Shown: positions 27,573 to 64,000 of the stretch, piece after piece
Layout of the letters: each line of letters starts with the position of its first letter
How positions within the stretch are numbered: the first letter of the stretch is position 1
Made by a program: the position numbers and the translations under genes
Assembly (NCBI GenBank): GCA_950097015.1
Contig: CATNEN010000039.1
Coordinates: 16,368,001 to 16,432,000, forward strand
Length of the DNA stretch: 64,000 bases
From: Macrostomum hystrix
Taxonomy: Eukaryota; Animalia; Platyhelminthes
Direction of reading: 5' to 3'
The notes under the pieces: generated by a model
Seen by the model: the letters and a program-made list of their open reading frames with translations, nothing else
Told to the model about the DNA's origin: nothing
Databases searched by the model: none

Positions 27573-27796
27573 GACACCCAATACTGTTAGACACCCAATA
27601 CTGTTAGACACCCAATACTGTTAGACACCCAATACTGTTAGACACCCAATACTGTTAGACACCCAATACTGTTAGACACCCAATACTGTTAGACACCCAA
27701 TACTGTTAGACACCCAATACTGTTAGACACCCAATACTGTTAGACACCCAATACTGTTAGACACCCAATACTGTTAGACACCCAATACTGTTAGAC
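27573..27796. repeat. 17-bp minisatellite (AGACACCCAATACTGTT)n, about 13 copies
   Basis: Directly visible; abuts a BIR-coding segment. Confidence 0.97.
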
Positions 27797-28726
27797 CTGC
27801 TTACCTGCTTCGGATTATCTCGCCTTCAAAAGCCGTCAGAAATCATTCTCGGGCATTGTTGACGAGGCGACCGCTCAGCAGCAGGCACAGAACGGATTCT
27901 ACAGTAACTCTCTCGATGGAGCTAGCTGCTTTGTCTGCGGCGCCAGCTCTGTTAAATTGAGCCAAGCTGCAGCTCAGGAGGACTCGAACCATCGACCTGG
28001 ATGTTTGCTTCCGCGGCTGCTGCAGCTGTTGCAAAAAAATGGCGCCGTGACGGAAACTGACATTGCGGTGGATTTGGCCAGACTACAAAATACTGTAATG
28101 CGACTTTTCCTGTTTCTGACTGATCAGAAAGTCGCATTTGTTGAATCTTTTGGATTCTCAAAATCCCAAACAATCCTAGGAGCACTTCGCCTGGCCTTTA
28201 AAACTAATTTCAAAGAGAATGGCTGGAAACTGGTGAGCTGATAGAGATTCTGCAGTCCTTCAACGAGGAGGTCTCCGCTCTGGCTGAAATTGTGTCGAGT
28301 CTTCTAAGGTCCTTGAGTCAGGGCGCTAGTCAAGGCTACAGCATAGGCAGCACAAGGACACAGCCTAATTTAATTCAAAATGAGCCGATTGGCACAACAA
28401 TCAGACCATGCGGCAGGTGAGGGACATCAATTTTTACCTCGACCTCAATTTGTCTTTTCTCGCTGCTTAATCTGAGCAATTTTTACCTGCTTCAAACAAT
28501 AACCCACAGCGCCTCAGTACAAGCTCCTAGTGTGGAAGCGAAACCACAAAGCGAACTAATTGAAGGCAGTCCATTTTGCACAATGTGCAAGACGCGGTCG
28601 CGCGATGTGGTCCTGCTTCCGTGCGCGCACCTCCTGTACTGCCGTCAGTGCGTCCTGGGAGCTCAAAGGTGTCCGCAGTGCGGTTCGCACATTTTGGCTG
28701 AGAAGAACGCATTTCTGACCTTATAG
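27795..28726 (+). pseudogene. IAP-like gene 3 (divergent BIR, UBA-like, RING) with one frameshift; exons about 27795-28416 and 28510-28726
   Basis: DYLAFKSRQKSFSG...AQNGFYSNSLDGASCFVCG...NHRPGCLL; VAFVESFGFSK; frameshift about 28210-28230 into TGELIEIL (paralogues TGDLIRLV, PGDIIRII); phase-2 intron 28417-28509; RING CTMC...LLPCAHLLYCRQC...CPQC. No 5' exon found. The frameshift could be an assembly error. Confidence 0.75.
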
Positions 28727-29228
28727 GGAACTGACGATGCTGTGGCCTCCTAAACCCCACGACGCATACGTCATCAGCTGCCGGCTGGGTCAGACTCTTG
28801 TGGTAAGCATCAGTTATAAATGGCTTATGGCACTACCGACCGGGCTTAACCCTTTGAAGATTCCGCTCAAAACGAAACTGGACATAAAAGTGAAGGTAAC
28901 TGTGTGGCTTTAGCATACATTACATTACATTATATAGCACAGTAACACAACTGTTCTTCAGAAAAATCTTCAAAGATTTGGGTTTGGGACTTATGATGGA
29001 ATTAGGATGTCTAAGCCTAAAGCAGTAATGTATCGATGCACATTGCTGCCAGTAGAAAGGAAGCGGCAGAAACTTTGGGTTTCACACTTGATTATGCTAC
29101 CTGCCGTGCCCCACAACATTTGATACTCGATTCTATTTCTTAATAGGTGAAATGTACGAGGCAAAGTGCCAGAGCCGTTATAAATAATTCAATTTCTAGA
29201 GATTAGAAAAACATTTAAATTTTTGAAT

Positions 29229-29449
29229 TCATCGTTTATATTCATCGTTGACATAATGTTCGCAGTTGATATAGGTTTCAGTGAGGTAATTAGATTTAGA
29301 AATCAGTTTAATGCACTTTTCTGATGGAGGGCAAAAATTTTCAGAGAAATGTCCCGGCTGTGGATCTACATCTCGTTTCACGTAGGAAAGGCATGGTACC
29401 AGATCACGTTCTAGATCATTGATCAAGTTAAATACACTCGCTTTATTGC
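29229..29449 (-). pseudogene. Inverted fragment of exon 2 of the Ly6/uPAR-like gene family
   Basis: NKASVFNLINDLERDLVPCLSYV...ENFCPPSEKCIKLI...INCE matches exon 2 of the forward copies; no exon 1 attached. Confidence 0.8.
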
Positions 29450-30090
29450 GAGAACAATTGACAGAACCCCTCCCTGTCGAATGAGATATAGGATCTCGGA
29501 TGTAGGATCAGCGGCATCCCATATTGGATGTATTTTCTGGGATATGGGATCTGTGGCACAGGATGCGGGATCTGAGGTGCGGAGAAATCTGAGAAAGAAC
29601 GATTTGATGTGACTGAAGAAAAGTCACTAGCTTTCGTTAACCTGGCTCTGTCTAAAAAGTCTGTCAAATATGGGCCCATGGGAAACATTCATTCGATGCT
29701 TGTAAAGTGCAATACTTCTTTGTTAGAGAGAAACTCCAGTAAGCTAGAAAGATTTCTAATAGTACAACACAAAAGTTCATCTCAGAAAAGTAATGCATGA
29801 AAAACGCAAAGTAGAGCTGAAATTTGTCATAGACAAAAGGCGGGCACCCCTGTGTCAGCCAGCACTGCCATAGACCGAGCCGGCTCGGACCTGTACTTTC
29901 TGCAGCATATTGAAGGGGCAGCGGCCCGAAACGAAGAATCAAATCCAACAACTGACAACACTGGACTAAGCATTCTGGCCGATTCTACTCAGCCGTTGCA
30001 AACCTGATCAGCAATTCAACTGCCACCTGCCAGCTAATCGACCAAATCTAACTGGGCTATTCGGAATCGAAGCTGGCAATCGTGACGACT

Positions 30091-30782
30091 ATGAAGCTGG
30101 TTATTGTTTGCGTGTTTCTTGCACTTGGAGGCATCCAGCTGGCTGATTGTATTAAATGTATCTGGTCGAGAAATAGAAGAGTAAAATTTTACGAATATAA
30201 GAATGACCATACTGAAACAGATTGTACTCCTGCGAACGTCACCAAGTGTAAAGTGGAATATCATCCAACTCATGGTGATGTTGAATTTCCTGAAGTGGTG
30301 AGCGACCGAATGAATTAAACTACTTTGATTAGCATATCAATTCGAAATCATAAAGCTACAGTTCGCCCTATAAATTTTACCCTATGCGGAAACTTTTTTA
30401 GGCACTGAAATATGGTTGCGGCGCCTGTCCTCCTACAAAATATTGCAAAGACTGCACGGGTGATAACTGCAATAAAGCGAGTGTATTTAACTTGACCAAT
30501 GATCTAAAACGTGATCTGGTACCATGCTTTTTCAAGTCGGAAGTGTTTTTCCCTGGTCAAGGCGTATTCCCAAGTCTCACAGAAGAAAATTTTTGCCCTC
30601 CATCCGAAAGGTGCTTTAAAATGGTTACTAAAAATTCTATACCCGAAGTGCATTTGAAAACCCTCATCGGCTGTGAAGAAGCGGTTAGACGCACTCACAG
30701 AGATTCACAAAATGGCTATCTTTTAAAGCTTGAAGGCTACGAATGCAAACCAAACCCAGAACAATCTGCTTGCATCCCATAG
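30091..30782 (+). CDS. Ly6/uPAR (three-finger)-like secreted protein, copy A; exons 30091-30297 and 30402-30782
   Basis: Signal peptide MKLVIVCVFLALGGIQLADC; IKC at mature N-terminus; phase-0 intron GTG|GTGAGC...TTTTAG|GCA; YGCGACPPTKYCKDCTGDNCN (LU-like C-terminal CxxxxCN); second Cys domain ending SACIP*; no membrane anchor. Confidence 0.7.
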
Positions 30783-31257: not shown

Positions 31258-31528
31258 TAATGATCCCCCAGTTGACAATGATCCCCCAGTTGACAATGAT
31301 CCCCCAGTTGACAATGATCCCCCAGTTGACAATGATCCCCTAGTTGACGATGATCCCCCAGTTGACAATGATCCCCCAGTTGACAATGATCCCCCAGTTG
31401 ACAATGATCCCCCAGTTGACAATGATCCCCCAGTTGATGATGATCCCCCAGTTGACAATGATCCCCCAGTTGATGATGATCCCCCAGTTGATGATGACCC
31501 CCATTTATGATGATCCCCAGTTGACAAT
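31258..31528. repeat. 18-bp minisatellite (AATGATCCCCCAGTTGAC)n
   Basis: Visible; homologous arrays at about 41000-41238 and about 52268-52556 downstream of each LU-like copy. Confidence 0.95.
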
Positions 31529-31682
31529 GTTCTCCAGCTGCTTTTGTATAAAATTGAGAAGAACAATTTAGTTAAATGAATATTAGGCAAAATTATTATC
31601 ATACAAACATATATCATTATGACGTTATAAGATAACAAAATCAAAATGTAGACAATTCAGATCAATGACAAAAGAAAAATAG

Positions 31683-31861
31683 ATTTAAATTCTGGTTGGC
31701 TATGATTCAAACGCTGGTTCAGCCATGATTCAAACGCTGGTTGGCTATGATTCAAACTTGGGTTTAGCTATGATTCAAACTCTGGTTGGCCATGATTCAA
31801 ACTCTGGTTGGCTATGATTCAAACTCTGGTTGGCTATGATTCAAACTCTGGTTAGCTATGA
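31683..31861. repeat. 22-bp minisatellite (GGTTGGCTATGATTCAAACTCT)n
   Basis: Visible; homologous arrays at about 41393-41721 and about 52708-52832. Confidence 0.92.
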
Positions 31862-32212
31862 TGATAGGTAGCTGCTTTGGACTGCCCGAAACGGAACTTA
31901 ATTCCCGTCTGACTGAAATCGTCGGGGTGAATACCACAGGCGCGGTACGCTTCGCTGAGGTCCACCTTTGTCATAAAACAGCCTCTGGACAGCTTTATCG
32001 CAAAGTTATCGGCGCACGTGAGTCGCAGCTTCTCCTGGCTGACCCATCTGGAGTTCAAAGTGTTGTTCAAAGGCCGACTGCAGTCGGGAATAAGGCGCAC
32101 ACGATCACTATCTTTGGGCAGGGCTTCAAGGGCGCTGACCACTTTTGGACGTCCGCCGGTCGGGCACTCGCGATACCGCCCACACTTGAGCTCTTTGTTA
32201 ATCTGCGTTTAG
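31862..32212 (-). mobile_element. DIRS/Ngaro-type (tyrosine-recombinase retrotransposon) RT fragment
   Basis: SALEALPKDSDRVRLIPDCSRP...LN...GCFMTKVDLSEAYRACGIHPDDFSQTGIKF follows the DIRS RT pattern (PK..RLI.D.S.P; K.DL..AYR...HP.D...G). Confidence 0.75.
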
Positions 32213-32819
32213 ATTAAACAGTGACTAAGCATGCCAAACTTAACAAACCCAATGTGAAACTAAAGAATCAAATGCTTTCACTGTCAATTACTTTCTTCGA
32301 TCTCTTTCTGACTTGCTCATGCCAGTTTAAAGAAATGACTTCCCTGTACACCTGCTCACTGCTCACTACCTCACTTCCTGTCACCCATTGGTTTTGGTTT
32401 TTTTCCAATGTCCTTGCCGCGGAAAAACCACGGCACGGACAAGGGAAAACCTATTTAGCTTAGTAGAGAAAGGGAACTACATTCAACATTCGATTTGATT
32501 ATATTTACTCATAGTCCGTTACCAACGATGAGTTTAATTTCTGCCTGTTTCTGAAGTTTACTTTTTTGGTTAATATGTGTTGTTGAGAACTGTATTTCAC
32601 ATTGCATGTTTGTAGTTGAACTGTATCTGAGCGTGGTTCCCAGAATATTTAAATGCAGTTAAATAGAAAAAAACGTGTTAATCTCCGGTGGAGTATCCCT
32701 GCTCATGTCTATGGTAAAAGTCAAGGAGAGAGAAAAGAGAAAAAGAAGCTACTACGAGTCAAACCTAAACTACTTTTTTCTGTGTTTGTCCCAAAATAAG
32801 GCACAAATCTGACTAGTTG

Positions 32820-33335
32820 AAATGGGGGGAGCTTTAATTACCGCCGACGATGTAATTGAGAGCTATAATTTTCCGCTCTATCCGATGAAACAACTTCCAG
32901 AATCACAAAACACGGGCCAACTTTTTGTTGCGCAACTTCTGAAACAAGAATCAAGTCACCAGCTCTTTAGACCGTCGAGATATTAAATGTTTCTGGCCGA
33001 AGGCCAGGCCTTCAAAATTTATCAGCATGTCACCCAAATGTGCCTGCATCTCCGTCTTCGGTGTTTACCTGCATTTATCTATACCAATTTGCTGGACCTT
33101 CAAGGGCTACAACAGGTGGAAATAGGCCACTATGGACACCCTGACGCGAATTTATCCAATTTCACTGATCAAGCCTAAATATTAGGCGCAGCTCAACCAC
33201 ATGACACCATCGTCTAGTCTGTCAACCACCACAACCCAACGCTGTTAGCTTTCAGGCGCTGCCAAAAGAAATTGCAAGAGGGATCCCCCTTGGAATAAAA
33301 ACGGGCGGCAAAATGGATTGGTAGTCCTACTTTTA
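32820..33335. mobile_element. Copy of the piggyBac-like MITE (left end decayed)
   Basis: Homologous to 7380-7935; ends TTGGTAGTCCTACTTTTAA. Confidence 0.7.
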
Positions 33336-33740
33336 ATAGGCATGTTGTTCTATTGATTTGTAAAATAAAGGCCTATGTACTTGTGTAACTTATATTAGTG
33401 ACACTGCCTTAAGACCACAAGGAAATCTACGTTACATTAATTTAGTCTTGTCTAGCATATCCTAATAGTCCTTGATTAGGAGGTGAGTCTAGTAAAGCAA
33501 CAGGTTCTACTTTGCACCTGGGTACCTGAGCTCGAATTCAATCTTATTTCTGGCCAAGTCCAAGAAGACACAGTGAGAGTGTACACTGCTTAAAAAATGT
33601 TATCCGCCAGTTTTACAGCAAGGATTTAAAGTGGCCCGAAGCTTACTGCATGACCACTGGAACCCAATATCGCAAGAATAATCCCATACCCTATGCATCG
33701 AGAAAACATGTCCTTGCCAGTGTAATTCAGTCTCTCCTTG

Positions 33741-34108
33741 ATAATCTCACAGAATACTTCTTATTGACAATGTCACCTTGATAATCTCACAGAATATTTC
33801 TTATTGACAATGTCACCTTGATAATCTCACAGAATATTTCTTATTGACAATGTCACCTTGATAATCTCACAGAATATTTCTTATTGACAATGTCACCTTG
33901 ATAATCTCACAGAATATTTCTTATTGACAATGTCACCTTGATAATCTCACAGAATATTTCTTATTGACAATGTCACCTTGATAATCTCACAGAATATTTC
34001 TTATTGACAATGTCACCTTGATAATCTCACAGAATATTTCTTATTGACAATGTCACCTTGATAATCTCACAGAATATTTCTTATTGACAATGTCACCTTG
34101 ATAATCTC
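33741..34108. repeat. 40-bp minisatellite, 9 copies
   Basis: ATAATCTCACAGAATATTTCTTATTGACAATGTCACCTTG. Confidence 0.97.
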
Positions 34109-35235
34109 TTATTGTTAATACGAGCCTATCATCCAGATAAACTCACTCAGATCATGCCGAAAATCTCTACTTGATAATCTCTTCTTGGCAATCTCATTTA
34201 GAAAATCTCTCGTTGATAGTCTCAGCCAGATAATCTTTACTTGACAATGACACCCAAATAATATCGTTCTGAAAATATAAGCATCTGTTATTCCTCGAGA
34301 ATACCAAACTAAGGAAATTTACTATTGAAAGCTGCTTACAGCAGATAATATTTAATATTTTTATGCGAGATAATATTATCCTCTAAAAAATCCACTATTC
34401 ATATTTTTACACCTCGAGACTCGAACGTTTAAAGTAGAGCTTTGGATGCAACCTTACAAAAATGAATTAAAAAACACATTTGTTTTTCGAAAGCGAACTT
34501 TCAAGTGTGCAAGGCGCTTTTCCGCTGCACACATGTGCACGCTTGTACTCGCACACATGCTAGCAGAAGTGAGTGCTATAGACTTTAAAAATAGAAAACT
34601 TCAAAGCCGGGGATTTACCGCGGTTCAACCCAGGTTTGGCCTTGGAAACGCCGCTCTGGTTTAAATATGAAACTTTTTTAAACCTGTTTATTAGTGCTGA
34701 AATTTTGAAATTTGAAATTATACTAGAAGAATTCACGTGGCGTCGTGAAGTAATCCTTGGCTTGGTCGTCGTCGAAAGAAAGTTTCGAGTAAGAATCTAA
34801 ATCAGCTTGTCAAACGAGCTTTAGACTAGGGCAAATATATTTTCAGGGAAACAGCTTTTTGTTGTTGAAGTAAGATCCAATTTAAATAAGATAGACAATG
34901 AACTACAATATTTTACTTAGGCCAAAAAGAAGTAAAAATCATTACTTGTTTACATTTTCAATGCATAAGCAGACTAAGCATATACGCGAGTCCATAATAC
35001 TCATAAAAATTAATAATTAATAATTTAACTGAAGTAATGCATTGTGTCTTGCTCCCCGAATCCCCGACCTTCAACCACAAAGCTACCCTTCCTGCTACTC
35101 TAAGTGCACCCAATCAGCGCCGTACATTAGAAAGCTCAGCGTGTCAAATAGATGTTTCTAAAATTAGCCACTTGACAGACTACAAAAGCGTGAAGGGGGG
35201 CCTGCACCCGTTTATTTCCAGGACGCACAAGCCTG

Positions 35236-36290
35236 ATGATGGCCCACGCCAACGACGAAAGCCTTGCAAATGGGCAGCCTCACGACTCCATGCATCATTC
35301 TCTGGAGCTTACCAGTGACAGACACGAAGAAAACTGGCAGCAATGGGCTGCTGAACCTGTCAGGCAGTACAGGCCAGCTCAAACAAGCTCATCTAGTGCC
35401 GAAGCAACCCTGACAGTGCGGCCAGACCAGCTAGGTCTCCTGACAGATAAGCAAGCCTGCATGTTGGATAAATTAATGCACAACTGCAGTGATATTGAGC
35501 GCTGCATTCTGCTTGGCTGCTTGTTGCACATCTACACACGGACCAGGAACGTTTTCTTGGCTATGAGAGTCGTCTCCGATCGTTTGGAGACTCGCCTGAC
35601 GAAGCGTACGCTCTTCGATGGGCGCAGAGCGGATTCTACAGCGAGGGCTTTCGCCGAGTCGTCTGCTGCCACTGCGGTATGCAGTACGTCCATCCGAGGT
35701 CCGAAAATGAAGTTGATCGCAAGAAGTGTCCCAGCCAGAGTGATGAATCGCATAGTTGCGCGCTCTCTTGGCTTCTGAACTTTATCGACAATGACGGAGA
35801 TGTGAAAGGGGCGTCAAAAGCTGAGCTTTTGAAAAGCTGAGTAGGACGAGTTGAGGCAGCACTGGGAAGCCAGGCTGTGCAACTCGCCGATTCGTTCAGA
35901 TACTCGAGAGGATTGGATCTGGCAGTGCTCATCGCAGCGTGTGACCAAGCTCCTACTCACCCGAGGGCTGGCGAGCTCATTCAGTTGAGGACAAACGCTC
36001 CTGAGAACAGTTCAACGGAATTTCTTTGGCTGGAAGCCAAGCCGGCAGGACTGATGGACAAGAACGAGCAAGCCTCAGCAAGCTCAGTTGATGGAGGACA
36101 ACTACAGCGGGCTTCGGCAAGCAGTAATGAAAGCGACCTGTGTCAAATGTGCTCCTGCAGGCGAAGGGATCGAATAACTCTACCCTGCGCACACCTGAAT
36201 TAGTTCTGTCATGTCTGCTTGAGTAAAGCTTGCGAGTGCCCCGCTTGCCACTCCGTAATTTTAGGCATGCTCGTTGCAAATATAAGCTAG
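35236..36290 (+). pseudogene. Intronless IAP-like pseudogene (BIR-UBA-like-RING)
   Basis: After CILLGCLLHIY...VFL a frameshift (about 35560) gives YESRLRSFGDSPDEAYALRWAQSGFYS...CCHCG; in-frame TGA at 35838; AVQLADSFRYS...AGELIQL; RING CQMC...LPCAHLN*FCHVC...CPAC with in-frame TAG at 36201. Confidence 0.8.
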
Positions 36291-36779
36291 TTGATCCCCA
36301 AAGATGCAACATTTACTGGTCATCAAAATAAATTGACACAAAAGCGAGTTATTTGCTTTCTCGTTTCATCGTATCTATCCATTCATTTACTCAAATGACT
36401 CGTTTTGGTGCACATTTTAGTGCAGTGCTCAAATAAATGTTAATATAAAATAATGTACAATCACGTCAACTGGCCTCTACAGATGGCTGTTTAAATGAGC
36501 CTTTAGACTCGACAAGACTGGGTAGAATAGTACAGCACTAGCGAGGAGAATACGAGAATTAAACATTTTTTGCTTTCCTGTAAGCTAAGAAGGACCTTAA
36601 AATGTTGTCAGTGTGTTAAAAATGTACTTGTACAGTATAGGCTAATGTACATTCATACCATTGCTCATGCCACTCCAGTGTTCATGAGCATTCGTTGAAA
36701 AATAAATTGTAATAAAACTTGTTCAAATTCTTATACTCGTAGCTTTATGATTTCGAATTGATATGCTGATTAAATTAGC

Positions 36780-37001
36780 TTAATTCATTCGGTCGCTCTC
36801 CACTTCGCCTTCAGTTGGATGATATTCCACTTTACACTTGGTGACTCTGGCAGGAGTACAATATATAGCAGTATGGTCATTCTTATATTTAGAAAATGAT
36901 ACTCTTGTATTTCTCGACCAGATACATTTAATACAATCAGCCAGCTGGATGCCTCCAAGTGCAAGAAACACGCCAACAATAACCAGCTTGATAGCCGTCA
37001 T
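36780..37001 (-). pseudogene. Inverted exon 1 of the LU-like gene with mutated splice donor
   Basis: Signal peptide + IKCIWSRN...C...C; donor GTGAGC changed to GAGAGC, so it reads into an intron stop; homology covers about 36740-37245 including the 5' flank. Confidence 0.75.
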
Positions 37002-37245
37002 GATTTCCAGCTTCGATTCCGAATAGCCCAGTTAGATTTGGTCGATTAGCTGGCAGGTGGCAGTTGAACTGCAGTCAATTCTTGATCCGATTTGCAACGG
37101 CTGAGTAGAATCGGCCAGAATGCTTAGTCGAGTGTTGTCAGTTGTTGGATTTGATTCTTCGCTTCGGGCCGCTGCCTTTTCAAAATGCTGCAGAATATGC
37201 AGGTCCGAGCCGGCTCGGTCTATGGCAGCGCTGGCTCACACAGGG

Positions 37246-38460
37246 GCCTCTCGTGCAGACTGTGAGGTCGTCAGCGTATTGAGTCAGCTGGATCTGGCCA
37301 GGAGGAGCCGGGATGTCGCTCATGTAGTAGGCAAAGAGGAGCGCGGACAGAACCCCTCCCTGAGGCACGCCCGCTCTGAGACGCCTGGCCGAGGAGAGCG
37401 AGCCGCGGAAGAGGACTCTCGTGCTCCGACCGCACAGGTACGCACTGAGCCACCTGGTGAGGCATTTCGGCAGGCTGGAGTTGAAGAGCATCCGGAGGAG
37501 CTTGGCGTGATTGACTTTGTCGAACGCTTTTTGCATATCGAGTGCGATGAGCAGAGTCCTCTCAGCAGGTTTAGGTTGGTTAAGGCCATTGCTGATGGAG
37601 CTGGTGAGGCTGGTGAGGGCGGTGGCGGTGGAGTGCCCCGCGCGGAAGCCATGCTGCCAGGTGGGGAGCGGGAGTGCGCTCTGAAAGGTGGACAGCAGGC
37701 ACTTTTCCAGCAATTTGGCGGCTGGAGAAAGGATCGAGATTGGCCTGTAGGAGGAGCTGCAGGTAGCATCTTTGTTCCTTTGAGAAGAGGCACTACCTTC
37801 GCAGATGTCCAGGTGCTAGGAACGATATACTGGTGGTAGGGCTCAGATTGAATAGGCAGCAGAGGAAGGCAATTCCCCTTGGTCCAAGATGCTTCAGGAC
37901 GATTGGGGAAAGGCCATCCGGTCCGGTGGCTTTGGACGGCGAAGAGCTTTTGATGGCCGACGTGACGTCACTTGGACGTGAGCAGGAAGCCATTGGTGGG
38001 GGAAAGCATGTCCCTTTTGAGGCGTCTGTCTTCCGGGGTGGCCGGATGAATTTGATCAAAGAACTGCCTGTTGGAGGCCTTGGCAATGCGTTTGGGATCA
38101 GTTAAGGGAAGCTCGTCAAAAAGGATGCCAGCGGAGTTTTCTTTGTGGCCTTTACCGCTGAGGTTCTTGATGGTTCGCCACAGTTCAGAGACCTGGTGCT
38201 TGATGCTGAACTGCTCAAGCTTTTCCCTCCAGTTCGCCCGGCGAAAGTTGGAGCAGATCTGGTTGATTTCGTCTTGAATGATGGTGATAGCTTCCGTGCG
38301 GGTTATCCGTGCGAATGAGGTCTCTTTGCTTGCAGAGGGTGTCGGCTTCCGGCGGGAAGTGGGGACGAAAATTTCCCAGCTAGGATGTGGTGCTTAGCTG
38401 CTTGAAGGACAGCTTGCCTGAAGGCTTTCTCTCCAGGATGAGGATGCGATTTGGGATCTA
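37246..38460 (-). mobile_element. Non-LTR retrotransposon (LINE) ORF2/RT fragment, truncated just after YADD
   Basis: KATGPDGL; SYRPISIL; QHGFRAGHST; LDMQKAFDKVNH; GVPQGGVLSALLF; QYADDL; frameshifted. Confidence 0.92.
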
Positions 38461-41238: not shown

Positions 41239-41392
41239 TTCTCCAGCTGCTTTTGTATAAAATTGAGAAGAACAATTTAATTAAATGAATATTAGGCAAA
41301 ATTATTATCATACAAACATATATCATTATGACGTTATAAGATAACAAAATCAAAATGTAGACAATTCAGATCAATGACAAAAGAAAAATAGA

Positions 41393-53123: not shown

Positions 53124-54200
53124 TCAAAATTGCGCGACGAAAAAATCTGGCTGCCTCCGAGTTCGATTCGAGCGTCTGGGCCCAGCAGGCGCCGGTTCGT
53201 CCAGCAGCTCCTGCCAGGTCTCACGCGGGTCGGCAGCCGGACTGGGCGGCCGGTCGCTCTCTGCAGCGGGTGGGTCGGCGGCGGGCTGCGGGACAGCGGG
53301 CTGCGGCCGCCTCGCCACGAACGCCTTCAGCCGGTCGTGGTGCACCACCGAGCTCCGCCTCCGCCCGGTGGGCTTGGAGATCCGGTAGGTGACTGGGCCC
53401 AGCTTCTCGAGCACGCGGTACGGCCCCCACCACCGCCGGCGGAGCGCCTTGGACTGGCCCTTCTGCACCGCCGGGTTGTTGAGCATCACCAGCTGGCCGA
53501 CTTGGAACGGAGTGAAGTGCTGGCGCTTGTCGTACTGCTGCTTCCGCGATCGCTGCGTCGACTGCAGGCGCTGCCGCACTAGCTGCAGGCCGGCGCGGGC
53601 GTCCGCCAGCGCGTCCGTGACGACCGGCCTCTCACCGGCGGCGGGCAGGCTGAGCTCGGCTGGGATCCGGGGGTCGCGGCCGTGCAGCACTGCGTACGGT
53701 GACCGCTTGGTGGTGCTGTGGACCGATGAGTTGTACGCCCAGATGACCTACGGCAGGAAAGCCGCCCACCTGTCCTGCTGCTCCATGCAGTAGGCCGCCA
53801 GCATGTCGCCCAGAGTCCGGTTGAATCGCTCGACCACCGGATTGCCGCTGGGGTGGAATGGTGTCGTCCTGGTCTTTCGAATGTCGAGCAGCCGGCACAG
53901 CTCCTGGAAGATGTCGCTTTCGAACTGGCGACCTTGATCGGAGTGGATGACCTCGGGCGACCCGTGGCGGAGGACGACGCTGCGCAGCATGGCTTCAGCG
54001 ACCGTGCGAGTCTCGATGTTGGTCGCTGGGGCCGCTTCGACCCACTTGGAGAACACGTCGGTGAAGCAGATGATGTACTTCTGACCGGCCTCTGTGGCCG
54101 GCAGCGGTCCTTTGATGTCCACCTGCACCATCTCCCAGGGAGTTGACGGCACGGTGTTGTCCTGCAGCGGCGCCCTTTGGTGCTGGTGCGGTACCTTGCG
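53124..54200 (-). mobile_element. Gypsy LTR retrotransposon integrase fragment
   Basis: PWEMVQVDIKGPLP...TDVFSKWVEA...HSDQGRQFES...TTPFHPSGNPVVERFNRTL; in-frame stop at about 53748; GPY motif WWGPYRV...VVHHDRLK. Confidence 0.93.
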
Positions 54201-54369
54201 ACGTTCGAAATGAAACAGTTCTTAGAGGCAATTCCATGGCACTACCTCGGAACAGAATTGGCAGTCCCATGGAAATGCTTCCAATACTAAATTTTCGAAT
54301 ATCGCAAATTAGTCATTTTTCTGTTTCCATGCGGCTCGTAATAGATCAAGGCTTTTTAATTTTCTCAAA

Positions 54370-55203
54370 ATGAGATTTCTGATCATGGAAACACTGTGCG
54401 ATCCAAATGAACTGCCAGTGAGCTTCGACCTGCTGCCAGATAGGCTACAGGATATTCTGAAAACACACTGGACGCTTGGCAGCGCGGAATTTAGAAACTA
54501 CATCGCACAAACCCTGCTCCTTATTTTTGGTTCGTCGTTTCGAATTGATCAGCTAAGCTTCAAGAACCGCGTGATGTCCTTCCGAGGCCATATTGACGAT
54601 ACCATCTCCCTAAGATGGGCGGAGAGCGGATTTTTCAGCCACGGACCCAACGGCGCCAGCTGCTGCCACTGCGGCAAAACAATCGAGCGACTCGCGCCTG
54701 GAGACCCCTCGGAGTGGCACTCAAACCGAGGACAATCGGGCTGTTCGCTGCTGCGGTTGCAGCGAATTCTTCAATGGACACCCAGAGCCGCGTGTCAGGA
54801 TGTCGAAATCGGTAGCCAAGCTGGAAGATACGAACAGCTAATTAGGAGACTTTTAGCTGCTCTCAGAGACCCAGTCAGTGAGCTGGTTGAGTCCTTCGGA
54901 TTCTCTAAAAATGAGGTCGCTTTGGCTTGGCTGAAAACAGTCGCATATAACAAAGCACCGAAACTAGCGAAACCAGGAGACATCATTAGGATCATTCACG
55001 ATCTACCAGCTGATCAGCCAAACGTTCTAGAAGTACTGTCAGCCTCGCCTGTCGTTCAATATCTGTACAGTTCAGCTGTGGATAATGCGCCTTTGTCACT
55101 GGAGATAAGAGGCAATGAACTTTTCCATCCGTTGGACTGGCGGCAAGAATTGACAGATGACTCAAGAAACGATGACTTTAGTTGCAACGCAAAAATCATT
55201 TGA
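54370..55203 (+). CDS. Intronless IAP-like protein (divergent BIR + UBA-like, no RING), 277 aa
   Basis: Intact ORF; SFKNRVMSF...WAESGFFSHGPNGASCCHCG...DPSEWHSNRGQSGC; DPVSELVESFGFSK...PGDIIRIIH; AATAAA about 55237. Confidence 0.78.
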   Translation: MRFLIMETLCDPNELPVSFDLLPDRLQDILKTHWTLGSAEFRNYIAQTLLLIFGSSFRIDQLSFKNRVMSFRGHIDDTISLRWAESGFFSHGPNGASCCHCGKTIERLAPGDPSEWHSNRGQSGCSLLRLQRILQWTPRAACQDVEIGSQAGRYEQLIRRLLAALRDPVSELVESFGFSKNEVALAWLKTVAYNKAPKLAKPGDIIRIIHDLPADQPNVLEVLSASPVVQYLYSSAVDNAPLSLEIRGNELFHPLDWRQELTDDSRNDDFSCNAKII

Positions 55204-56745: not shown

Positions 56746-57527
56746 CATCAAGCACCTATCCATTTAATAATCTAAATTCATCGCTCCTAATATGGTGTTG
56801 TTAGGTGCTAGGTGGATAGATGCTAGGCAACTAGTTTACTAGGTAGTGTTAACATTTTAGGAAAGTAACCTCCATAAACAAGGCAATTTCGTGGAAAAGC
56901 CGGAAAGAAACGCTATTTCTTAATTCTATTTAAAACTTCTATTACAAATGAATGACCTGTTTGCATAAATGTCATAAAAGTGCATTGTGAATGCGGTTCA
57001 TTGTTTTTCTTATGTACCTTATGTAACTTCTACCTTATGTTCGCAGAACAATAATCAACAATAATGAAACAGTAACGAACATTGACTATGGCCATTGGTT
57101 TTGGTTTTTTTCCAATGTCCTTGCCGCGGAAAAACGACGGCACGGACAAGGGAAAATCTATTTAGCTTAGTAGAGAAAGGGAACTACATTCAACATTCGA
57201 TTTGATTATATTTACTCAGAGTCCGCTACCAACGATGAGTTTAATTTCTGCCTGTTTCTGAAGTTTACTTTTTTGGTCAATGTGTGTTGTTGAGAACTGC
57301 ATTTCACATTGCATGTTTGTAGTTGAACTGTATCTGAGCGTGGTTCCCAGAATATTTAAATGCAGTTAAATAGAAAAAAACGTGTTAATCTCCGGTGGAG
57401 TATCCCTTGCTCATGTCTATGGTAAAAGTCAAGGAAAGAGAAAAGAGAAAAAGAAGCTACTACGAGTCAAACCTAAACTACTTTTTTCTGTGTTTGTCCC
57501 AAAATAAGGCACAAATCTGACTAGATG

Positions 57528-58043
57528 AAATGGGGGGAGCTTTAATTACCGCCGACGATGTAATTGAGCGCTAAAAGTTTCCGCTCTATCCGATGAAACA
57601 ACTTCCAGAATCACCAAACACGGGCCAACTTTTTGTTGCGCAACTTCTGAAACAAGAATCAAGTCACCAGCTCTTTAGACCGTCGAGATATTAAATGTTT
57701 CTGGCGGAAGGCCAGGCCTTCAAAATTTATCAGCATGTCACCCAAATGTGCCTGCATCTCCGTCTTCGGTGTTTACCTGCATTTATCTATACCAATTTGC
57801 TGGACCTTCAAGGGCTACAACAGGTGGAAATAGGCCACTATGGACACCCTGACGCGAATTTATCCAATTTCACTGATCAAGCCTAAATATTAGGCGCAGC
57901 TCAACCACATGACACCATCGTCTAGTCTGTCAACCACCACAACCCAACGCTGTTAGCTTTCAGGCGCTGCCAAAAGAAATTGCAAGAGGGATCCCCCTTG
58001 GAATAAAAACGGGCGGCAAAATGGATTGGTAGTCCTACTTTTA
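57528..58043. mobile_element. Copy of the piggyBac-like MITE
   Basis: Duplicate of 32820-33335. Confidence 0.7.
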
Positions 58044-58448
58044 ATAGGCATGTTGTTCTATTGATTTGTAAAATAAAGGCCTATGTACTTGTGTAACTTA
58101 TATTAGTGACACTGCCTTAAGACCACAAGGAAATCTACGTTACATTAATTTAGTCTTGTCTAGCATATCCTAATAGTCCTTGATTAGGAGGTGAGTCTAG
58201 TAAAGCAACAGGTTCTACTTTGCACCTGGGTACCTGAGCTCGAATTCAATCTTATTTCTGGCCAAGTCCAAGAAGACACAGTGAGAGTGTACACTGCTTG
58301 AAAAATGTTATCCGCCAGTTTTACAGCAAGGATTTAAAGTGGCCCGAAGCTTACTGCATGACCACTGGAACCCAATATCGCAAGAATAATCCCATACCCT
58401 ATGCATCGAGAAAACATGTCCTTGCCAGTGTAATTCAGTCTCTCCTTG

Positions 58449-58656
58449 ATAATCTCACAGAATATTTCTTATTGACAATGTCACCTTGATAATCTCACAG
58501 AATATTTCTTATTGACAATGTCACCTTGATAATCTCACAGAATATTTCTTATTGACAATGTCACCTTGATAATCTCACAGAATATTTCTTATTGACAATG
58601 TCACCTTGATAATCTCACAGAATATTTCTTATTGACAATGTCACCTTGATAATCTC
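58449..58656. repeat. 40-bp minisatellite, 5 copies
   Basis: Same unit as 33741-34108. Confidence 0.97.
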
Positions 58657-59783
58657 TTATTGTTAATACGAGCCTATCATCCAGATAAACTCACTCAGAT
58701 CATGCCGAAAATCTCTACTTGATAATCTCTTCTTGGCAATCTCATTTAGAAAATCTCTCGTTGATAGTCTCAGCCAGATAATCTCTACTTGACAATGACA
58801 CCCAAATAATATCGTTCTGAAAATATAAGCATCTGTTATTCCTCGAGAATACCAAACTAAGGAAATTTACTATTGAAAGCTGCTTACAGCAGATAATATT
58901 TAATTTTTTTATGCGAGATAATATTATCCTCTAAAAAATCCACTATTCATATTTTTACACCTCGAGACTCGAACGTTTAAAGTAGAGCTTTGGATGCAAC
59001 CTTACAAAAATGAATTAAAAAACACTTTTGTTTTTCGAAAGCGAACTTTCAAGTGTGCAAGGCGCTTTTCCGCTGCACACATGTGCACGCTTGTACTTGC
59101 ACACATGCTAGCAGAAGTGAGTGCTATAGACTTTAAAAATAGAAAACTTCAAAGCCGGGGATTTACCGCGGTTCAACCCAGGTTTGGCCTTGGAAACGCC
59201 GCTCTGGTTTAAATATGAAACTTTTTTAAACCTGTTTATTAGTGCTGAAATTTTGAAATTTGAAATTATACTTGAAGAATTCGCGTGGCGTCGTGAAGTA
59301 ATCCTTGGCTTGGTCGTCGTCGAAAGAAAGTTTCGAGTAAGAATCAAAATCAGCTTGTCAAACGAGCTTTAGACTAGGGCAAATATATTTTCAGGGAAAC
59401 AGCTTTTTGTTGTTGAAGTAAGATCCAATTTAAATAGGATAGACAATGAACTACAATATTTTACTTAGGCCAAAAAGAAGTAAAAATCATTACTTGTTTA
59501 CATTTTCAATGCATAAGCAGACTAAGCATATACGCGAGTCCATAATAGTCATAAAAATTAATAATTAAGAATTTAACTGAAGTAATGCATTGTGTCTTGC
59601 TCCCCGAATCCCCGACCTTCAACCACAAAGCTACCCTTCCTGCTACTCTAAGTGCACCCAATCAGCGCCGTACATTAGAAAGCTCAGCGTGTCAAATAGA
59701 TGTTTCTAAAATTAGCCACTTGACAGACTACAAAAGCGTGAAGGGGGGCCTGCACCCGTTTATTTCCAGGACGCACAAGCCTG

Positions 59784-60838
59784 ATGATGGCCCACGCCAA
59801 CGACGAAAGCCTTGCAAATGGGCAGCCTCACGACTCCATGCATCATTCTCTGGAGCTTACCAGTGACAGACACGAAGAAAACTGGCAGCAATGGGCTGCT
59901 GAACCTGTCAGGCAGTACAGGCCAGCTCAAACAAGCTCATCTAGTGCCGAAGCAACCCTGACAGTGCGGCCAGACCAGCTAGGTCTCCTGACAGATAAGC
60001 AAGCCTGCATGTTGGATAAATTAATGCACAACTGCAGTGATATTGAGCGCTGCATTCTGCTTGGCTGCTTGTTGCACATCTACACACGGACCAGGAACGT
60101 TTTCTTGGCTATGAGAGTCGTCTCCGATCGTTTGGAGACTCGCCTGACGAAGCGTACGCTCTTCGATGGGCGCAGAGCGGATTCTACAGCGAGGGCTTTC
60201 GCCGAGTCGTCTGCTGCCACTGCGGTATGCAGTACGTCCATCCGAGGTCCGAAAATGAAGTTGATCGCAAGAAGTGTCCCAGCCAGAGTGATGAATCGCA
60301 TAGTTGCGCGCTCTCTTGGCTTCTGAACTTTATCGACAATGACGGAGATGTGAAAGGGGCGTCAAAAGCTGAGCTTTTGAAAAGCTGAGTAGGACGAGTT
60401 GAGGCAGCACTGGGAAGCCAGGCTGTGCAACTCGCCGATTCGTTCAGATACTCGAGAGGATTGGATCTGGCAGTGCTCATCGCAGCGTGTGACCAAGCTC
60501 CTACTCACCCGAGGGCTGGCGAGCTCATTCAGTTGAGGACAAACGCTCCTGAGAACAGTTCAACGGAATTTCTTTGGCTGGAAGCCAAGCCGGCAGGACT
60601 GATGGACAAGAACGAGCAAGCCTCAGCAAGCTCAGTTGATGGAGGACAACTACAGCGGGCTTCGGCAAGCAGTAATGAAAGCGACCTGTGTCAAATGTGC
60701 TCCTGCAGGCGAAGGGATCGAATAACTCTACCCTGCGCACACCTGAATTAGTTCTGTCATGTCTGCTTGAGTAAAGCTTGCGAGTGCCCCGCTTGCCACT
60801 CCGTAATTTTAGGCATGCTCGTTGCAAATATAAGCTAG
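59784..60838 (+). pseudogene. Duplicate of the intronless IAP-like pseudogene
   Basis: Same frameshift and same two stops as 35236-36290. Confidence 0.8.
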
Positions 60839-61327
60839 TTGATCCCCAAAGATGCAACATTTACTGGTCATCAAAATAAATTGACACAAAAGCGAGTTAT
60901 TTGCTTTCTCGTTTCATCGTATCTATCCATTCATTTACTCAAATGACTCTTTTTGGTGCACATTTTAGTGCAGTGCTCAAATAAATGTTAATATAAAATA
61001 ATGTACAATCACGTCAACTGGCCTCTACAGATGGCTGTTTAAATGAGCCTTTAGACTCGACAAGACTGGGTAGAATAGTACAGCACTAGCGAGGAGAATA
61101 CGAGAATTAAACATTTTTTGCTTTCCTGTAAGCTAAGAAGGACCTTAAAATGTTGTCAGTGTGTTAAAAATGTACTTGTACGGTATAGGCTAATGTACAT
61201 TCATACCATTGCTCATGCCACTCCAGTGTTCATGAGCATTCGTTGAAAAATAAATTGTAATAAAACTTGTTCAAATTCTTATACTCGTAGCTTTATGATT
61301 TCGAATTGATATGCTGATTAAATTAGC

Positions 61328-61549
61328 TTAATTCATTCGGTCGCTCTCCACTTCGCCTTCAGTTGGATGATATTCCACTTTACACTTGGTGACGCTGGCA
61401 GGAGTACAATATATAGCAGTATGGTCATTCTTATATTTAGAAAATGATACTCTTGTATTTCTCGACCAGATACATTTAATACAATCAGCCAGCTGGATGC
61501 CTCCAAGTGCAAGAAACACGCCAACAATAACCAGCTTGATAGCCGTCAT
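61328..61549 (-). pseudogene. Inverted LU-like exon 1 (duplicate)
   Basis: As 36780-37001; PARV vs PASV difference. Confidence 0.75.
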
Positions 61550-61793
61550 GATTTCCAGCTTCGATTCCGAATAGCCCAGTTAGATTTGGTCGATTAGCTG
61601 GCAGGTGGCAGTTGAACTGCAGTCAATTCTTGATCCGATTTGCAACGGCTGAGTAGAATCGGCCAGAATGCTTAGTCGAGTGTTGTCAGTTGTTGGATTT
61701 GATTCTTCGTTTCGGGCCGCTGCCCCTTCAAAATGCTGCAGATAATGCAGGTGCGAGCCGGCTCGGTCTATGGCAGCGCTGGCTCACACAGGG

Positions 61794-63008
61794 GCCTCTC
61801 GTGCAGACTGTGAGGTCGTCAGCGTATTGAGTCAGCTGGATCTGGGCAGGAGGAGCCGGGATGTCGCTCATGTAGTAGGCAAAGAGGAGCGCGGACAGAA
61901 CCCCTCCCTGAGGCACGCCCGCTCTGAGACGCCTGGCCGAGGAGAGCGAGCCGCGGAAGAGGACTCTCGTGCTCCGACCGCACAGGTACGCACTGAGCCA
62001 CCTGGTGAGGCATTTCGGCAGGCTGGAGTTGAAGAGCATCCGGAGGAGCTTGGCGTGATTGACTTTGTCGAACGCTTTTTGCATATCGAGTGCGATGAGC
62101 AGAGTCCTCTCAGCAGATTTAGGTTGGTTAAGGCCATTGCTGATGGAGCTGGTGAGGCTGGTGAGGGCGGTGGCGGTGGAGTGCCCCGCGCGGAAGCCAT
62201 GCTGCCAGGTGGGGAGCGGGAGTGCGCTCTGAAAGGTGGACAGCAGGCACTTTTCCAGCAATTTGGCGGCTGGAGAAAGGATCGAGATTGGCCTGTAGGA
62301 GGAGCTGCAGGTAGCATCTTTGTTCCTTTGAGAAGAGGCACTACCTTCGCAGATGTCCAGGTGCTAGGAACGATATACTGGTGGTAGGGCTCAGATTGAA
62401 TAGGCAGCAGAGGAAGGCAATTCCCCTTGGTCCAAGATGCTTCAGGACGATTGGGGAAAGGCCATCCGGTCCGGTGGCTTTGGACGGCGAAGAGCTTTTG
62501 ATGGCCGACGTGACGTCACTTGGACGTGAGCAGGAAGCCATTGGTGGGGGAAAGCATGTCCCTTTTGAGGCGTCTGTCTTCCGGGGTGGCCGGATGAATT
62601 TGATCAAAGAACTGCCTGTTGGAGGCCTTGGCAATGCGTTTGGGATCAGTTAAGGGAAGCTCGTCAAAAAGGATGCCAGCGGAGTTTTCTTTGTGGCCTT
62701 TACCGCTGAGGTTCTTGATGGTTCGCCACAGTTCAGAGACCTGGTGCTTGATGCTGAACTGCTCAAGCTTTTCCCTCCAGTTCGCCCGGCGAAAGTTGGA
62801 GCAGATCTGGTTGATTTCGTCTTGAATGATGGTGATAGCTTCCGTGCGGGTTATCCGTGCGAATGAGGTCTCTTTGCTTGCAGAGGGTGTCGGCTTCCGG
62901 CGGGAAGTGGGGACGAAAATTTCCCAGCTAGGATGTGGTGCTTAGCTGCTTGAAGGACAGCTTGCCTGAAGGCTTTCTCTCCAGGATGAGGATGCGATTT
63001 GGGATCTA
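61794..63008 (-). mobile_element. LINE RT fragment (duplicate)
   Basis: As 37246-38460. Confidence 0.92.
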
Positions 63009-63619
63009 AGGTCTGTCGAATGAGATATAGGATCTCGGATGTAGGATCAGCGGCATCCCATATTGGATGTATTTTCTGGGATATGGGATCTGTGGCATAG
63101 GATGCGGGATCTGAGGTGCGGAGGAATCTGAGAAAGAACGATTTGATGTGACTGAAGAAAAGTCACTAGCTTTCGTTAACCTGGCTCTGTCTAAAAGTCT
63201 GTCAAATATGGGCCCATGGGAAGCATACATTCGATGCTTGTAAAGTGCAATAATTCTTTGTTAGAGAGAAACTCCAGTAAGCTAGAAAGATTTCTAATAG
63301 TACAACACAAAAGTTCATCTCAGAAAAGTAATGCATAAAAAACGCAAAGTAGAGCTGAAATTTGCCATAGACAAAAGGCGGGCACCCCTGTGTCAGCCAG
63401 CACTGCCATAGACCGAGCCGGCTCGGACCTGTACTTTCTGCAGCATATTGAAGGGGCAGCGGCCCGAAACGAAGAATCAAATCCAACAACTGACAACACT
63501 CGACTAAGCATTCTGGCCGATTCTACTCAGCCGTTGCAAACCTGATCAGCAATTCAACTGCCACCTGCCAGCTAATCGACCAAATCTAACTGGGCTATTC
63601 GGAATCGAAGCTGGCAATC

Positions 63620-64000
63620 ATGACGACTGTGAAGCTGGTTATTGTTGGCGTGTTTCTTGCACTTGGAGGCATCCAGCTGGCTGATTGTATTAAATGTATC
63701 TGGTCGAGAAATAGAGGAGTAACATTTTACGAATATAAGAATGACGATACTGATATATATTGTACTCCTGCCAGCGTCACCAAGTGTTACGTGGAATATC
63801 AACCTAAAGGTCCAACTCATTTATTTTTTCATCCCGAAGTGGTGAGCAACCGAATGAATTAAACTAATTTAATTTGCATATCAATTCGAAATCATAAAGC
63901 AACAGTTCGCCCTATAAATTTTACCCTATGCGGAAACTTTTTAGGAACTGAAATATGGTTGCGGCGCCTGTCCTGCTGCAAACTATTGCAAAGACTGCAC
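63620..64000 (+). CDS. Ly6/uPAR-like protein, copy D (exon 1 63620-63841; exon 2 from 63945, truncated by the window)
   Basis: Exon-1 protein identical to copy B. Confidence 0.75.

What the first reader, a model, noticed from the sequence alone, without database searches (positions are those of the whole stretch)
27795..64000. Repeated IAP + three-finger (Ly6/uPAR-like) gene module: candidate immune/recognition locus
Seen: the order IAP-like(+), inverted LU fragment(-), LU gene(+), 18-bp array, 22-bp array occurs at 27.8-31.9 kb and 35.2-41.7 kb, again from 59.8 kb to the window edge, and in collapsed form at 50.5-52.8 kb, where an IAP 5' stub is fused to the LU flank. The IAP partners at 27.8, 35.2 and 54.4 kb are highly diverged from each other, so the pairing is not just the one recent duplication. 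Known: IAPs control apoptosis and innate signalling and are expanded in several invertebrates; LU proteins act as surface receptors, modulators or toxins. Inference: an extracellular hypervariable recognition protein and an intracellular cell-death regulator are co-amplifying by birth-and-death evolution. I do not know of a described linkage like this.
Basis: partly seen in the sequence, partly recalled or inferred. Interest (0 to 1): 0.85.

Follow-up and report, generated by a model that had tools for sequence, protein, structure and literature searches.

The report
Hypervariable three-finger-like genes amid old IAPs
In a likely Macrostomum flatworm, a young, fast-varying family of predicted three-finger (Ly6-like) surface or secreted proteins sits inside a much older cluster of apoptosis-inhibitor-like genes, and their repeated pairing is most likely a by-product of local duplication rather than a working unit.

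Summary
The repeated layout is real, but the case for a co-amplifying module is not supported. The window holds seven IAP-like loci. The IAP partners are 27-31% identical as proteins, while the LU cassettes differ by only about 1.4% in their flanks, so the two families have very different ages. Duplicating a segment that runs LU...IAP behind another IAP gives the same order with diverged partners; the IAP3 stub and the truncated inverted fragments look like such breakpoints. The fourth unit is a 99.5% copy and could be a haplotype. The better finding is the LU-like family: spliced, present as many transcript variants, no homolog found, weak three-finger fold support. LU1 and LU2 keep all 15 cysteines but differ at about 32% of bases in domain 2; the copies are mosaics; one carries a membrane tail between 12-bp direct repeats, two lack it. 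dN/dS is about 1.5, not significant. Against my reading: an IAP1-like transcript is spliced and in frame, and three junctions lie in or close behind IAP genes (rough chance 0.04).

The parts
1552..3219 (+).
   Evidence: Pfam BIR 28.2 bits vs 22.9; tblastn; tree
8182..9897 (+). IAPb: canonical BIR + RING gene, two frames separated by a predicted intron holding a 56-bp array; no LU nearby (span = the two open frames)
   Evidence: Pfam BIR 39.0, zf-C3HC4_3 35.9 bits; 63% identity to M. lignano P0003
10015..27229 (.). 17-kb satellite, 16-bp unit, separating IAPa/b from the rest
27795..28726 (+). IAP1: degenerate BIR-like domain, helical region, intact RING; intron about 28414-28506; the window copy lacks its 5' part (17-bp array in its place) and has a one-base gap near 28226 that the laid contigs do not have
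   Evidence: Pfam BIR 18.0 (below cut-off), RING 41.7; contigs of X5-X8
29232..29449 (-). Inverted LU fragment A: part of exon 2 only, 40-43% diverged in domain 2, early stop
30091..30782 (+). LU1: signal peptide, two cysteine-rich domains, intron 30298-30401, no hydrophobic tail (195 aa, predicted secreted)
31259..31862 (.). 18-bp and 22-bp arrays of the LU cassette 3' flank (unit A)
   Evidence: variant order shared with unit B
32385..35200 (.). Spacer with 40-bp array, repeated at 57092-59750
35236..36290 (+). IAP2: frameshift near 35560, in-frame stops at 35838 and 36201; covered by contigs, one of which carries the first stop; likely transcribed pseudogene or short product
36739..37246 (-). 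Inverted LU fragment B: upstream flank, exon 1 (36798-37001), cut inside the intron
37180..38393 (-). LINE-type reverse transcriptase fragment
   Evidence: Pfam RVT_1 E 3e-29; frames
39072..39930 (+). LU2: 251 aa; signal peptide, domain 1 (9 Cys), domain 2 (6 Cys), Thr/Pro stalk, hydrophobic C-terminal helix (TM or GPI signal); intron 39294-39396
39775..40506 (+). Tail segment of LU2 (stalk, membrane helix, 3' UTR, 36-bp array) bounded by 12-bp direct repeats at 39775-39786 and 40495-40506; absent from LU3 and LU1
41001..41723 (.). 18-bp and 22/23-bp arrays (unit B)
50521..50739 (+). IAP3 5' stub (7.8% diverged from IAP3) fused through a few shared bases to the LU upstream flank
51075..51816 (+). 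LU3: 212 aa, coding close to LU2, no tail (predicted secreted); intron 51297-51399
52268..52834 (.). 18-bp and 23-bp arrays (unit C)
53124..54221 (-). LTR-retrotransposon integrase fragment
   Evidence: Pfam rve E 1.5e-15
54370..55203 (+). IAP3: open 277-aa frame, BIR-like with near-canonical zinc ligand spacing, no RING; not followed by LU
57092..64000 (+). Unit B': near-exact copy of spacer, IAP2, inverted fragment B, LINE piece and start of LU2 (cut by the window edge)

Best explanation
The locus is an old cluster of diverged IAP-like genes that likely received a young cassette of a predicted three-finger gene family, after which local duplications likely rebuilt the IAP-then-LU order as a by-product. 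Shown: IAP1/2/3 and IAPa are 25-31% identical as proteins; LU cassette flanks differ by 1-6%; three IAP loci lack an LU neighbour; the stub and both inverted fragments are truncated at sharp junctions; B' copies B. Inferred: the cassette was first a head-to-head LU pair behind IAP1; copying a segment that starts in the LU pair and ends just after IAP2 (or inside IAP3) places an IAP end in front of the next LU, giving IAP2-fragment-LU2 and stub-LU3; B' is a last duplication or a second haplotype. The LU genes encode extracellular disulfide-bonded two-domain proteins (signal peptide shown by sequence, fold predicted) in an anchored form (LU2) and tail-less, likely secreted forms (LU1, LU3). Inferred: recombination or gene conversion among copies keeps flanks alike and reshuffles variable loops, and the proteins likely bind variable foreign or partner surfaces. 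My odds for that role, with no tissue data: epidermal or mucus defence 0.4, reproduction 0.35, toxin 0.1, other 0.15. The IAP-like genes likely act, where intact (IAP1, IAPb), as independent BIR/RING ubiquitin-ligase-type regulators.
For: Age mismatch: IAP pairs 27-31% amino-acid identity and only 45-61-bp nucleotide hits against LU1/LU2 flanks 15 of 1,075 differences. IAPa groups with IAP1-3 (100/100, long-branch warning) and has no LU within 26 kb; IAPb none within 19 kb; IAP3 none within 6.1 kb downstream. Inverted fragments are different halves, and junctions are sharp. No similarity between the IAP1 and IAP2 3' regions. Transcript-like contigs: 136 and 115 contigs laid on 34300-40140 in X5 and X6, many being LU variants down to under 90% identity, against single tiling paths on IAP2 and 3-4 contigs per run on IAP1. 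Mosaicism: LU2/LU3 differ at 6 of 279 bases in domain 2 but 26 of 447 in the 3' flank; LU1/LU2 at 86 of 267 in domain 2 but 8 of 459 in the 3' flank. IAP2 has three breaks, and X6 record 26 spans the first stop with no difference.
Against: Three independent LU junctions all fall inside or within about 510 bp behind an IAP gene; such sequence is 20% of the non-LU DNA at 27.2-57.1 kb, so two extra hits have a rough post-hoc chance of 0.04 and three of 0.008. An IAP1-like transcript is spliced and in frame in the runs, so not all partners are dead, and its 3' end reaches 29198, next to the inverted LU piece. The duplication order is a reconstruction; DNA upstream of the stub and of IAP3 does not match beyond 220 bp. 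The three-finger fold is weakly supported (Z at most 4.3; no Pfam hit). dN/dS above 1 is not significant (p 0.09 overall, 0.11-0.39 by domain). Only one 64-kb window could be examined.
Confidence: 0.75

Rival explanations
1. One reading: IAP-like and LU-like genes form a selected, co-regulated recognition and cell-death module that amplifies as a unit.
For: Three independent IAP-LU junctions, rough chance 0.008-0.04; IAP1-like and LU-like sequences are both transcribed in the same runs; both families are linked to immunity elsewhere (PMC8917759 listing; PMC13719153 introduction).
Against: Very different ages of the two families; 3 of 7 IAP loci lack LU; IAP2 is broken and the stub is 220 bp; many LU variants but single IAP1 and IAP2 paths in contigs.
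Confidence: 0.08
2. The LU cassette (flank, gene, 18-bp and 22-bp arrays) is carried by a mobile element and inserted several times, perhaps favouring transcribed DNA near IAP genes.
For: The cassette keeps the same flanks and arrays in three places and transposon fragments border it; many LU variants exist beyond this window.
Against: The 5' boundaries differ between units (29474, 38465, 50734) and look like deletion or fusion junctions; spacer and IAP2 are copied together with LU in B'. I did not run a dedicated search for terminal repeats or Helitron ends.
Confidence: 0.1
3. Part of the repetition is an assembly artefact: B' is the other haplotype of B (this does not exclude the best explanation).
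For: B and B' differ by 0.5%, below the roughly 1.4% difference between the window and run contigs at IAP1 (20 listed sites over about 1.4 kb); separately assembled haplotypes are reported for Macrostomum assemblies (PMC10468722, passages).
Against: Differences are 29 substitutions and no indels, so not raw read error; the 40-bp array has 9.3 against 5.3 copies; upstream contexts differ and both lie on one contig. LU1, LU2 and LU3 differ too much in structure to be collapsed.
Confidence: 0.25
4. The LU coding divergence comes from relaxed constraint and occasional recombination, not from diversifying selection.
For: dN/dS is not significantly above 1 in any region; synonymous sites are also about ten times more diverged than flanks (21 of 133 vs 15 of 1,075, p 2e-12), which selection on amino acids does not explain.
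Against: All 15 ectodomain cysteines and the reading frame are kept across LU1-3 at 63% protein identity; point estimates of dN exceed dS in every LU1/LU2 region; many variants are transcribed and spliced.
Confidence: 0.3

Closest known systems
Ly6/uPAR (LU, three-finger) proteins, Pfam clan CL0117, including two-domain members such as TEX101 and C4.4A and invertebrate Activin_recp-, QVR- and DUF753-type proteins
   Same: Signal peptide, small cysteine-rich beta domains, domain 1 begins C-x2-C and ends in a C-x4-C-N motif, anchored and secreted forms; best fold and feature matches are in this clan.
   Different: No Pfam hit; 9 and 6 cysteines instead of the usual 8-10 per domain (usual count recalled); predicted helix in domain 2; no sequence homolog found.
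Snake three-finger toxin / LY6 cluster (PMC10421932, passages read)
   Same: Birth-and-death cluster with orphan exons; secreted forms arise by loss of the membrane-anchoring region.
   Different: Two domains; tail present or absent through a 720-bp segment between 12-bp direct repeats; no evidence of toxicity or a venom system; that cluster rarely includes other gene families.
Hypervariable cysteine-rich secreted families such as mussel MgCRP-I (PMC4558851, abstract and passages) and conotoxins (recalled)
   Same: Conserved signal region, invariant cysteines, hypervariable mature part, many copies.
   Different: Larger two-domain protein with an optional anchor; positive selection not shown here.
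Expanded invertebrate IAP clusters (PMC13159474, passages; PMC8917759, listing only)
   Same: Tandem and proximal duplicates, RING loss by premature stops, transposon-rich surroundings.
   Different: IAP1-3 have degenerate BIRs below Pfam's cut-off; the family here is in a free-living flatworm lineage that the 312-species survey did not sample.

Membership tests
Ly6/uPAR three-finger proteins | Match to a CL0117 profile | tested here: not met
   No Pfam family of the clan for either exon at E up to 1 or for 4 of 4 domain-2 copies at E up to 10; domain 1 is split by the intron and was not scanned whole.
Ly6/uPAR three-finger proteins | Three-finger beta fold | tested here: inconclusive
   Domain-2 model pLDDT 68; 8 of the top 9 and 28 of 50 VIA rows are three-finger proteins (assigned by me from entry titles), best Z 4.3, rmsd 3.9 over 66 residues; Foldseek none at E 0.001; Atlas scores 0.82-0.86, leads only.
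Ly6/uPAR three-finger proteins | Conserved 8-10 cysteine pattern ending in C-N (recalled) | tested here: inconclusive
   Domain 1 has 9 Cys with the terminal C-N; domain 2 has 6 and no C-N; all 15 are invariant in LU1-3. Disulfide pairing not tested.
Ly6/uPAR three-finger proteins | Signal peptide; GPI/TM anchor or secretion | tested here: met
   Hydrophobic N-terminus read from the sequence (no SignalP run); LU2 C-terminal 19-mer hydropathy 2.36 and predicted helix, LU1 0.82 and LU3 0.43.
IAP (BIR-containing proteins) | BIR domain above Pfam cut-off 22.9 bits | tested here: not met
   IAP1 18.0, IAP3 14.5, IAP2 no BIR hit (zf-C3HC 19.4). Met only by IAPa (28.2) and IAPb (39.0). IAP1-3 align with IAPa over BIR and helical region, so they are IAP-derived.
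IAP (BIR-containing proteins) | Zinc ligands C-x2-C-x16-H-x6-C (recalled) | tested here: inconclusive
   Counted: IAPb canonical; IAPa x19/x6; IAP3 x15/x7; IAP1 x17/x3; IAP2 x25/x1.
IAP (BIR-containing proteins) | C-terminal RING (RING-type IAPs) | tested here: met
   IAP1 41.7 and IAPb 35.9 bits vs cut-off 27; IAP2 RING interrupted by a stop; none in IAP3 or IAPa.
IAP (BIR-containing proteins) | Caspase or IBM binding, ubiquitin-ligase activity | not testable with these tools
   No functional data.
Co-evolving linked gene module | Partners of similar age with congruent histories | tested here: not met
   IAP partners 27-31% protein identity vs LU flanks 98.6% DNA identity.
Co-evolving linked gene module | Genome-wide and cross-species co-occurrence; co-expression | not testable with these tools
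   No genome held; no related loci found; only contigs, no tissue or treatment data.

The most novel reading that the evidence does not exclude
A selected recognition-and-death supergene in a free-living flatworm: hypervariable three-finger receptors, reshuffled by gene conversion with inverted fragments as donors and switched between anchored and secreted forms by a repeat-bounded tail segment, are kept next to divergent IAP-derived regulators because the two act in one non-self response.
Probability: 0.07. Interest if true: 0.85.

Novelty: new member of a known kind. Interest (0 to 1): 0.4.

Why it matters
The IAP-LU pairing itself most likely does not matter. The LU-like family does: it is a lineage-restricted, multi-variant, transcribed family whose mature domains vary far more than signal peptide, intron and flanks, with anchored and tail-less forms. 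Such families usually mark a biological conflict (pathogen recognition, mating, defence), and Macrostomum is open to RNAi and in situ work, so the question is directly testable. A side result: BIR+RING IAPs exist in this lineage, which limits the published statement that platyhelminths lost them (that survey sampled four parasitic species).

Tried and rejected
No whole genome is held, so genome-wide co-occurrence was not tested. Homolog searches with LU2 exon 2 (14 candidates, none at E 0.001; 2 hits) and IAP3 (2,151 candidates, none) gave nothing usable; the two hits P0001 and P0002 are a bacterial Ig-repeat protein and a RAP-domain repeat protein scored by summed repeats, rejected. Only near-length proteins were searched. 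Metagenome scans with the LU domain-2 alignment and with IAP3 found no relative. The single-sequence model of exon 2 had pLDDT 50 and was not used for a fold search. Foldseek on the domain-2 model gave no match at E 0.001. phmmer of IAP3 against PDB gave only weak XIAP/survivin BIR rows (E 0.18-0.9) and a glycosyltransferase row I treat as chance. No run is on record as RNA; I treat X5-X8 as transcript-derived because contigs skip GT..AG introns. Contig depth was not used to rank genes. The transcript's 5' part of IAP1 was not found in the window. Significant positive selection was not found. Earlier findings of the scan: three look-ups, nothing. Paper searches listed no paper on an IAP-Ly6 linkage or a Macrostomum three-finger family; one search found nothing and 52 and 56 gave only general parallels; the library lacks most subscription papers, and supplements were read only for PMC13159474. 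PMC5977470 (passages) has no mention of Ly6 or cysteine; bioRxiv 2025.01.09.632098 has no mention of three-finger, Ly6 or Macrostomum (term search only; its supplements are closed and could bear on flatworm toxin families).


Full report
Setting. The window is eukaryotic and rich in tandem arrays. The best-conserved IAP frame (9187-9828) finds 7 proteins among 68 candidates, at 47-63% identity; the 4 that carry a species name are Macrostomum lignano. I infer a Macrostomum or close relative. No whole genome is held.

Observation. Unit A: IAP1, inverted LU piece, LU1, 18-bp and 22-bp arrays. Unit B: IAP2, inverted LU piece, a LINE fragment (RVT_1), LU2, arrays. Unit C: a 220-bp IAP3 5' stub fused to the LU flank, LU3, arrays. 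Unit B' repeats 32.4-39.45 kb at 57.1-64 kb: 29 substitutions and no indels in 5,343 bases, IAP2 coding identical. The inverted fragments are not one part: unit A holds a piece of exon 2, unit B the flank, exon 1 and half the intron.

The IAP side. IAP1, 2 and 3 are 27-31% identical as proteins and share only 45-61-bp nucleotide hits. Their BIR-like domains fall below Pfam's cut-off (18.0, none, 14.5 bits); IAP1 has a good RING (41.7), IAP2 a RING cut by a stop, IAP3 none. Two more IAP genes lie at 1.55-3.22 kb (BIR 28.2 bits) and about 8.2-9.83 kb (BIR 39.0, RING 35.9). In a tree of 12 rows, IAPa joins IAP1-3 (100/100) apart from IAPb and the seven database proteins; the tool warns that long branches meet, but the four also share motifs in the helical region. 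So the cluster is old. Of 7 IAP loci, 4 have LU sequence within about 510 bp downstream (IAP1, IAP2, stub, IAP2'); IAP3, IAPb and IAPa have none within 6.1, 19 and 26 kb.

Transcript evidence. Eight runs hold part of the LU2 stretch; none is on record as RNA, but contigs skip introns. On IAP1, 3-4 contigs per run tile one path in X5-X8; 3 of 4 runs skip a 93-base GT..AG intron at about 28414-28506; 4 of 4 have one extra base after 28226, which removes the window's frameshift; 3 of 4 continue 5' of 27812 into sequence that is not in the window. So an in-frame IAP1-like transcript exists, while the window copy is 5'-truncated by a 17-bp array. IAP2 is covered by one 1.1-kb contig in X5 and three in X6, one of which spans the stop at 35838 with no difference; X1 and X3 do not cover it. 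Whether the IAP2 frameshift and second stop are in the contigs could not be read from the shortened tables. On 34300-40140, 52, 52, 136 and 115 contigs were laid in X1, X3, X5 and X6, with many LU variants from over 99% to under 90% identity, several joined across the intron at the same place. Depth cannot rank genes in this tool, but the variant count shows a multi-copy LU family beside single IAP1 and IAP2 paths.

The LU-like genes. Each has two exons with a 103-104-base intron. LU2 encodes 251 residues: hydrophobic N-terminus, domain 1 with 9 cysteines, domain 2 with 6, a Thr/Pro stalk and a hydrophobic C-terminal helix. LU1 (195) and LU3 (212) lack the tail. In LU2 the tail lies in a 720-bp segment between 12-bp direct repeats; LU3 has one repeat copy. 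Tail sequence is in contigs of X1, X5 and X6 with no differences, and the LU3-type continuation appears as loose ends at 39786 in X1 and X3. No homolog was found and no Pfam family. A domain-2 model from four window copies reached pLDDT 68. Foldseek gave nothing at E 0.001. VIA-align over 48,161 chains gave a best Z of only 4.3, but 8 of the top 9 and 28 of 50 rows are three-finger proteins. Atlas features point to the same clan at 0.82-0.86, leads only. I rate the fold as likely, not shown.

Divergence pattern. LU1 against LU2: flanks 15 of 1,075, signal region 2 of 60, intron 5 of 103, exon 1 mature 18 of 144, domain 2 86 of 267 (inflated by one gappy loop). Protein identity is 63% with all 15 cysteines kept; dN 0.27, dS 0.18. 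dN above dS is not significant (p 0.09; by domain 0.11-0.39). Synonymous sites exceed flanks about tenfold (p 2e-12), which points to recombination or conversion rather than amino-acid selection alone. The copies are mosaics: coding groups LU2 with LU3 (domain 2, 6 of 279), the 3' flank groups LU1 with LU2 (8 of 459 against 26-27 of 447), and the 18-bp arrays of units A and B share variant order.

How the pairing arose (inferred). A cassette whose flanks are 1-6% apart cannot have been duplicated together with partners that are 70% apart. If a head-to-head LU pair lay behind IAP1, copying a segment from inside that pair to just after IAP2 gives IAP1-LU-IAP2-fragment-LU. A copy ending 220 bp into IAP3 gives stub-LU3 followed by full IAP3; the junction joins the two through a few shared bases. 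B' is a final copy or a haplotype. What remains unexplained: three independent junctions all lie in or just behind IAP genes, which make up 20% of non-LU DNA here (rough chance 0.04 for two, 0.008 for three; post hoc), and the DNA before the stub does not match the DNA before IAP3.

Comparison with what is known. LU proteins occur in all metazoan phyla surveyed, 61 in five flatworm genomes, as anchored, TM or secreted forms (PMC13719153; abstract, introduction, methods and passages). The snake LY6/3FTX cluster shows orphan exons, birth-and-death and secretion by anchor loss (PMC10421932, passages). Mussel MgCRP-I shows the conserved-signal, hypervariable-mature pattern (PMC4558851, abstract and passages). 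IAP expansion by tandem and proximal duplication with RING loss is widespread (PMC13159474, passages). That paper states RING-containing IAPs were lost in platyhelminths; its supplement lists four parasitic species and no Macrostomum, while IAPb and M. lignano P0003 carry BIR and RING. Searches listed no report of an IAP-Ly6 linkage.

Verdict. Observation partly confirmed; module interpretation not supported (0.08); by-product of local duplication most likely (0.75). The hypervariable three-finger-like family is a new member of a known kind and worth follow-up. Interest 0.4.

Noticed in passing
window 8182-9897 (+); P0003: Canonical BIR+RING IAP here and in M. lignano, although a 2026 survey (PMC13159474) says platyhelminths lost RING-containing IAPs; it sampled only four parasitic species.
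   Followed up: yes
window 8458-8803: A 56-bp array of 6.2 copies overlaps the end of IAPb's first coding frame; each unit repeats the apparent splice donor, so several donors lie in tandem.
   Followed up: no
window 10015-27229: 17-kb satellite of a 16-bp unit (about 1,098 copies) with GC skew near 1.0, splitting the IAP cluster.
   Followed up: no
window 241-525 (+): 3' end of a ribosomal protein S9/S16-family gene (Pfam E 2.6e-11), a possible synteny anchor for finding this locus in other species.
   Followed up: partly
window 5514-6968 (+): Fragments of an AMP-binding (acyl-CoA ligase-like) gene between IAPa and IAPb (Pfam E 4.7e-7 and 0.029).
   Followed up: partly
window 27572-27811: A 17-bp array replaces the 5' part of IAP1 that run contigs show; that 5' sequence is absent from the window.
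   Followed up: partly
window 39525-39808 (X6 record 31 and joint table): A contig joins the end of the linker region to the tail and skips domain 2, hinting at single-domain anchored paralogs.
   Followed up: no
window 31952-32213 and 56482-56743: The same 262-bp transposon-like piece (96% identical) lies in opposite orientations just upstream of the two spacer copies.
   Followed up: no
window 7440-7930 and 32890-33330: By eye, a diverged copy of part of the unit-B spacer lies upstream of IAPb, a possible trace of older duplication in the IAP cluster or a dispersed repeat.
   Followed up: no
window 41676-42311 (-), 50279-50367, 49214-49766, 53124-54221 (-): Gag-like (weak DUF7041), LINE-like and integrase fragments and several GC-rich arrays fill 41.8-54.2 kb.
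   Followed up: partly
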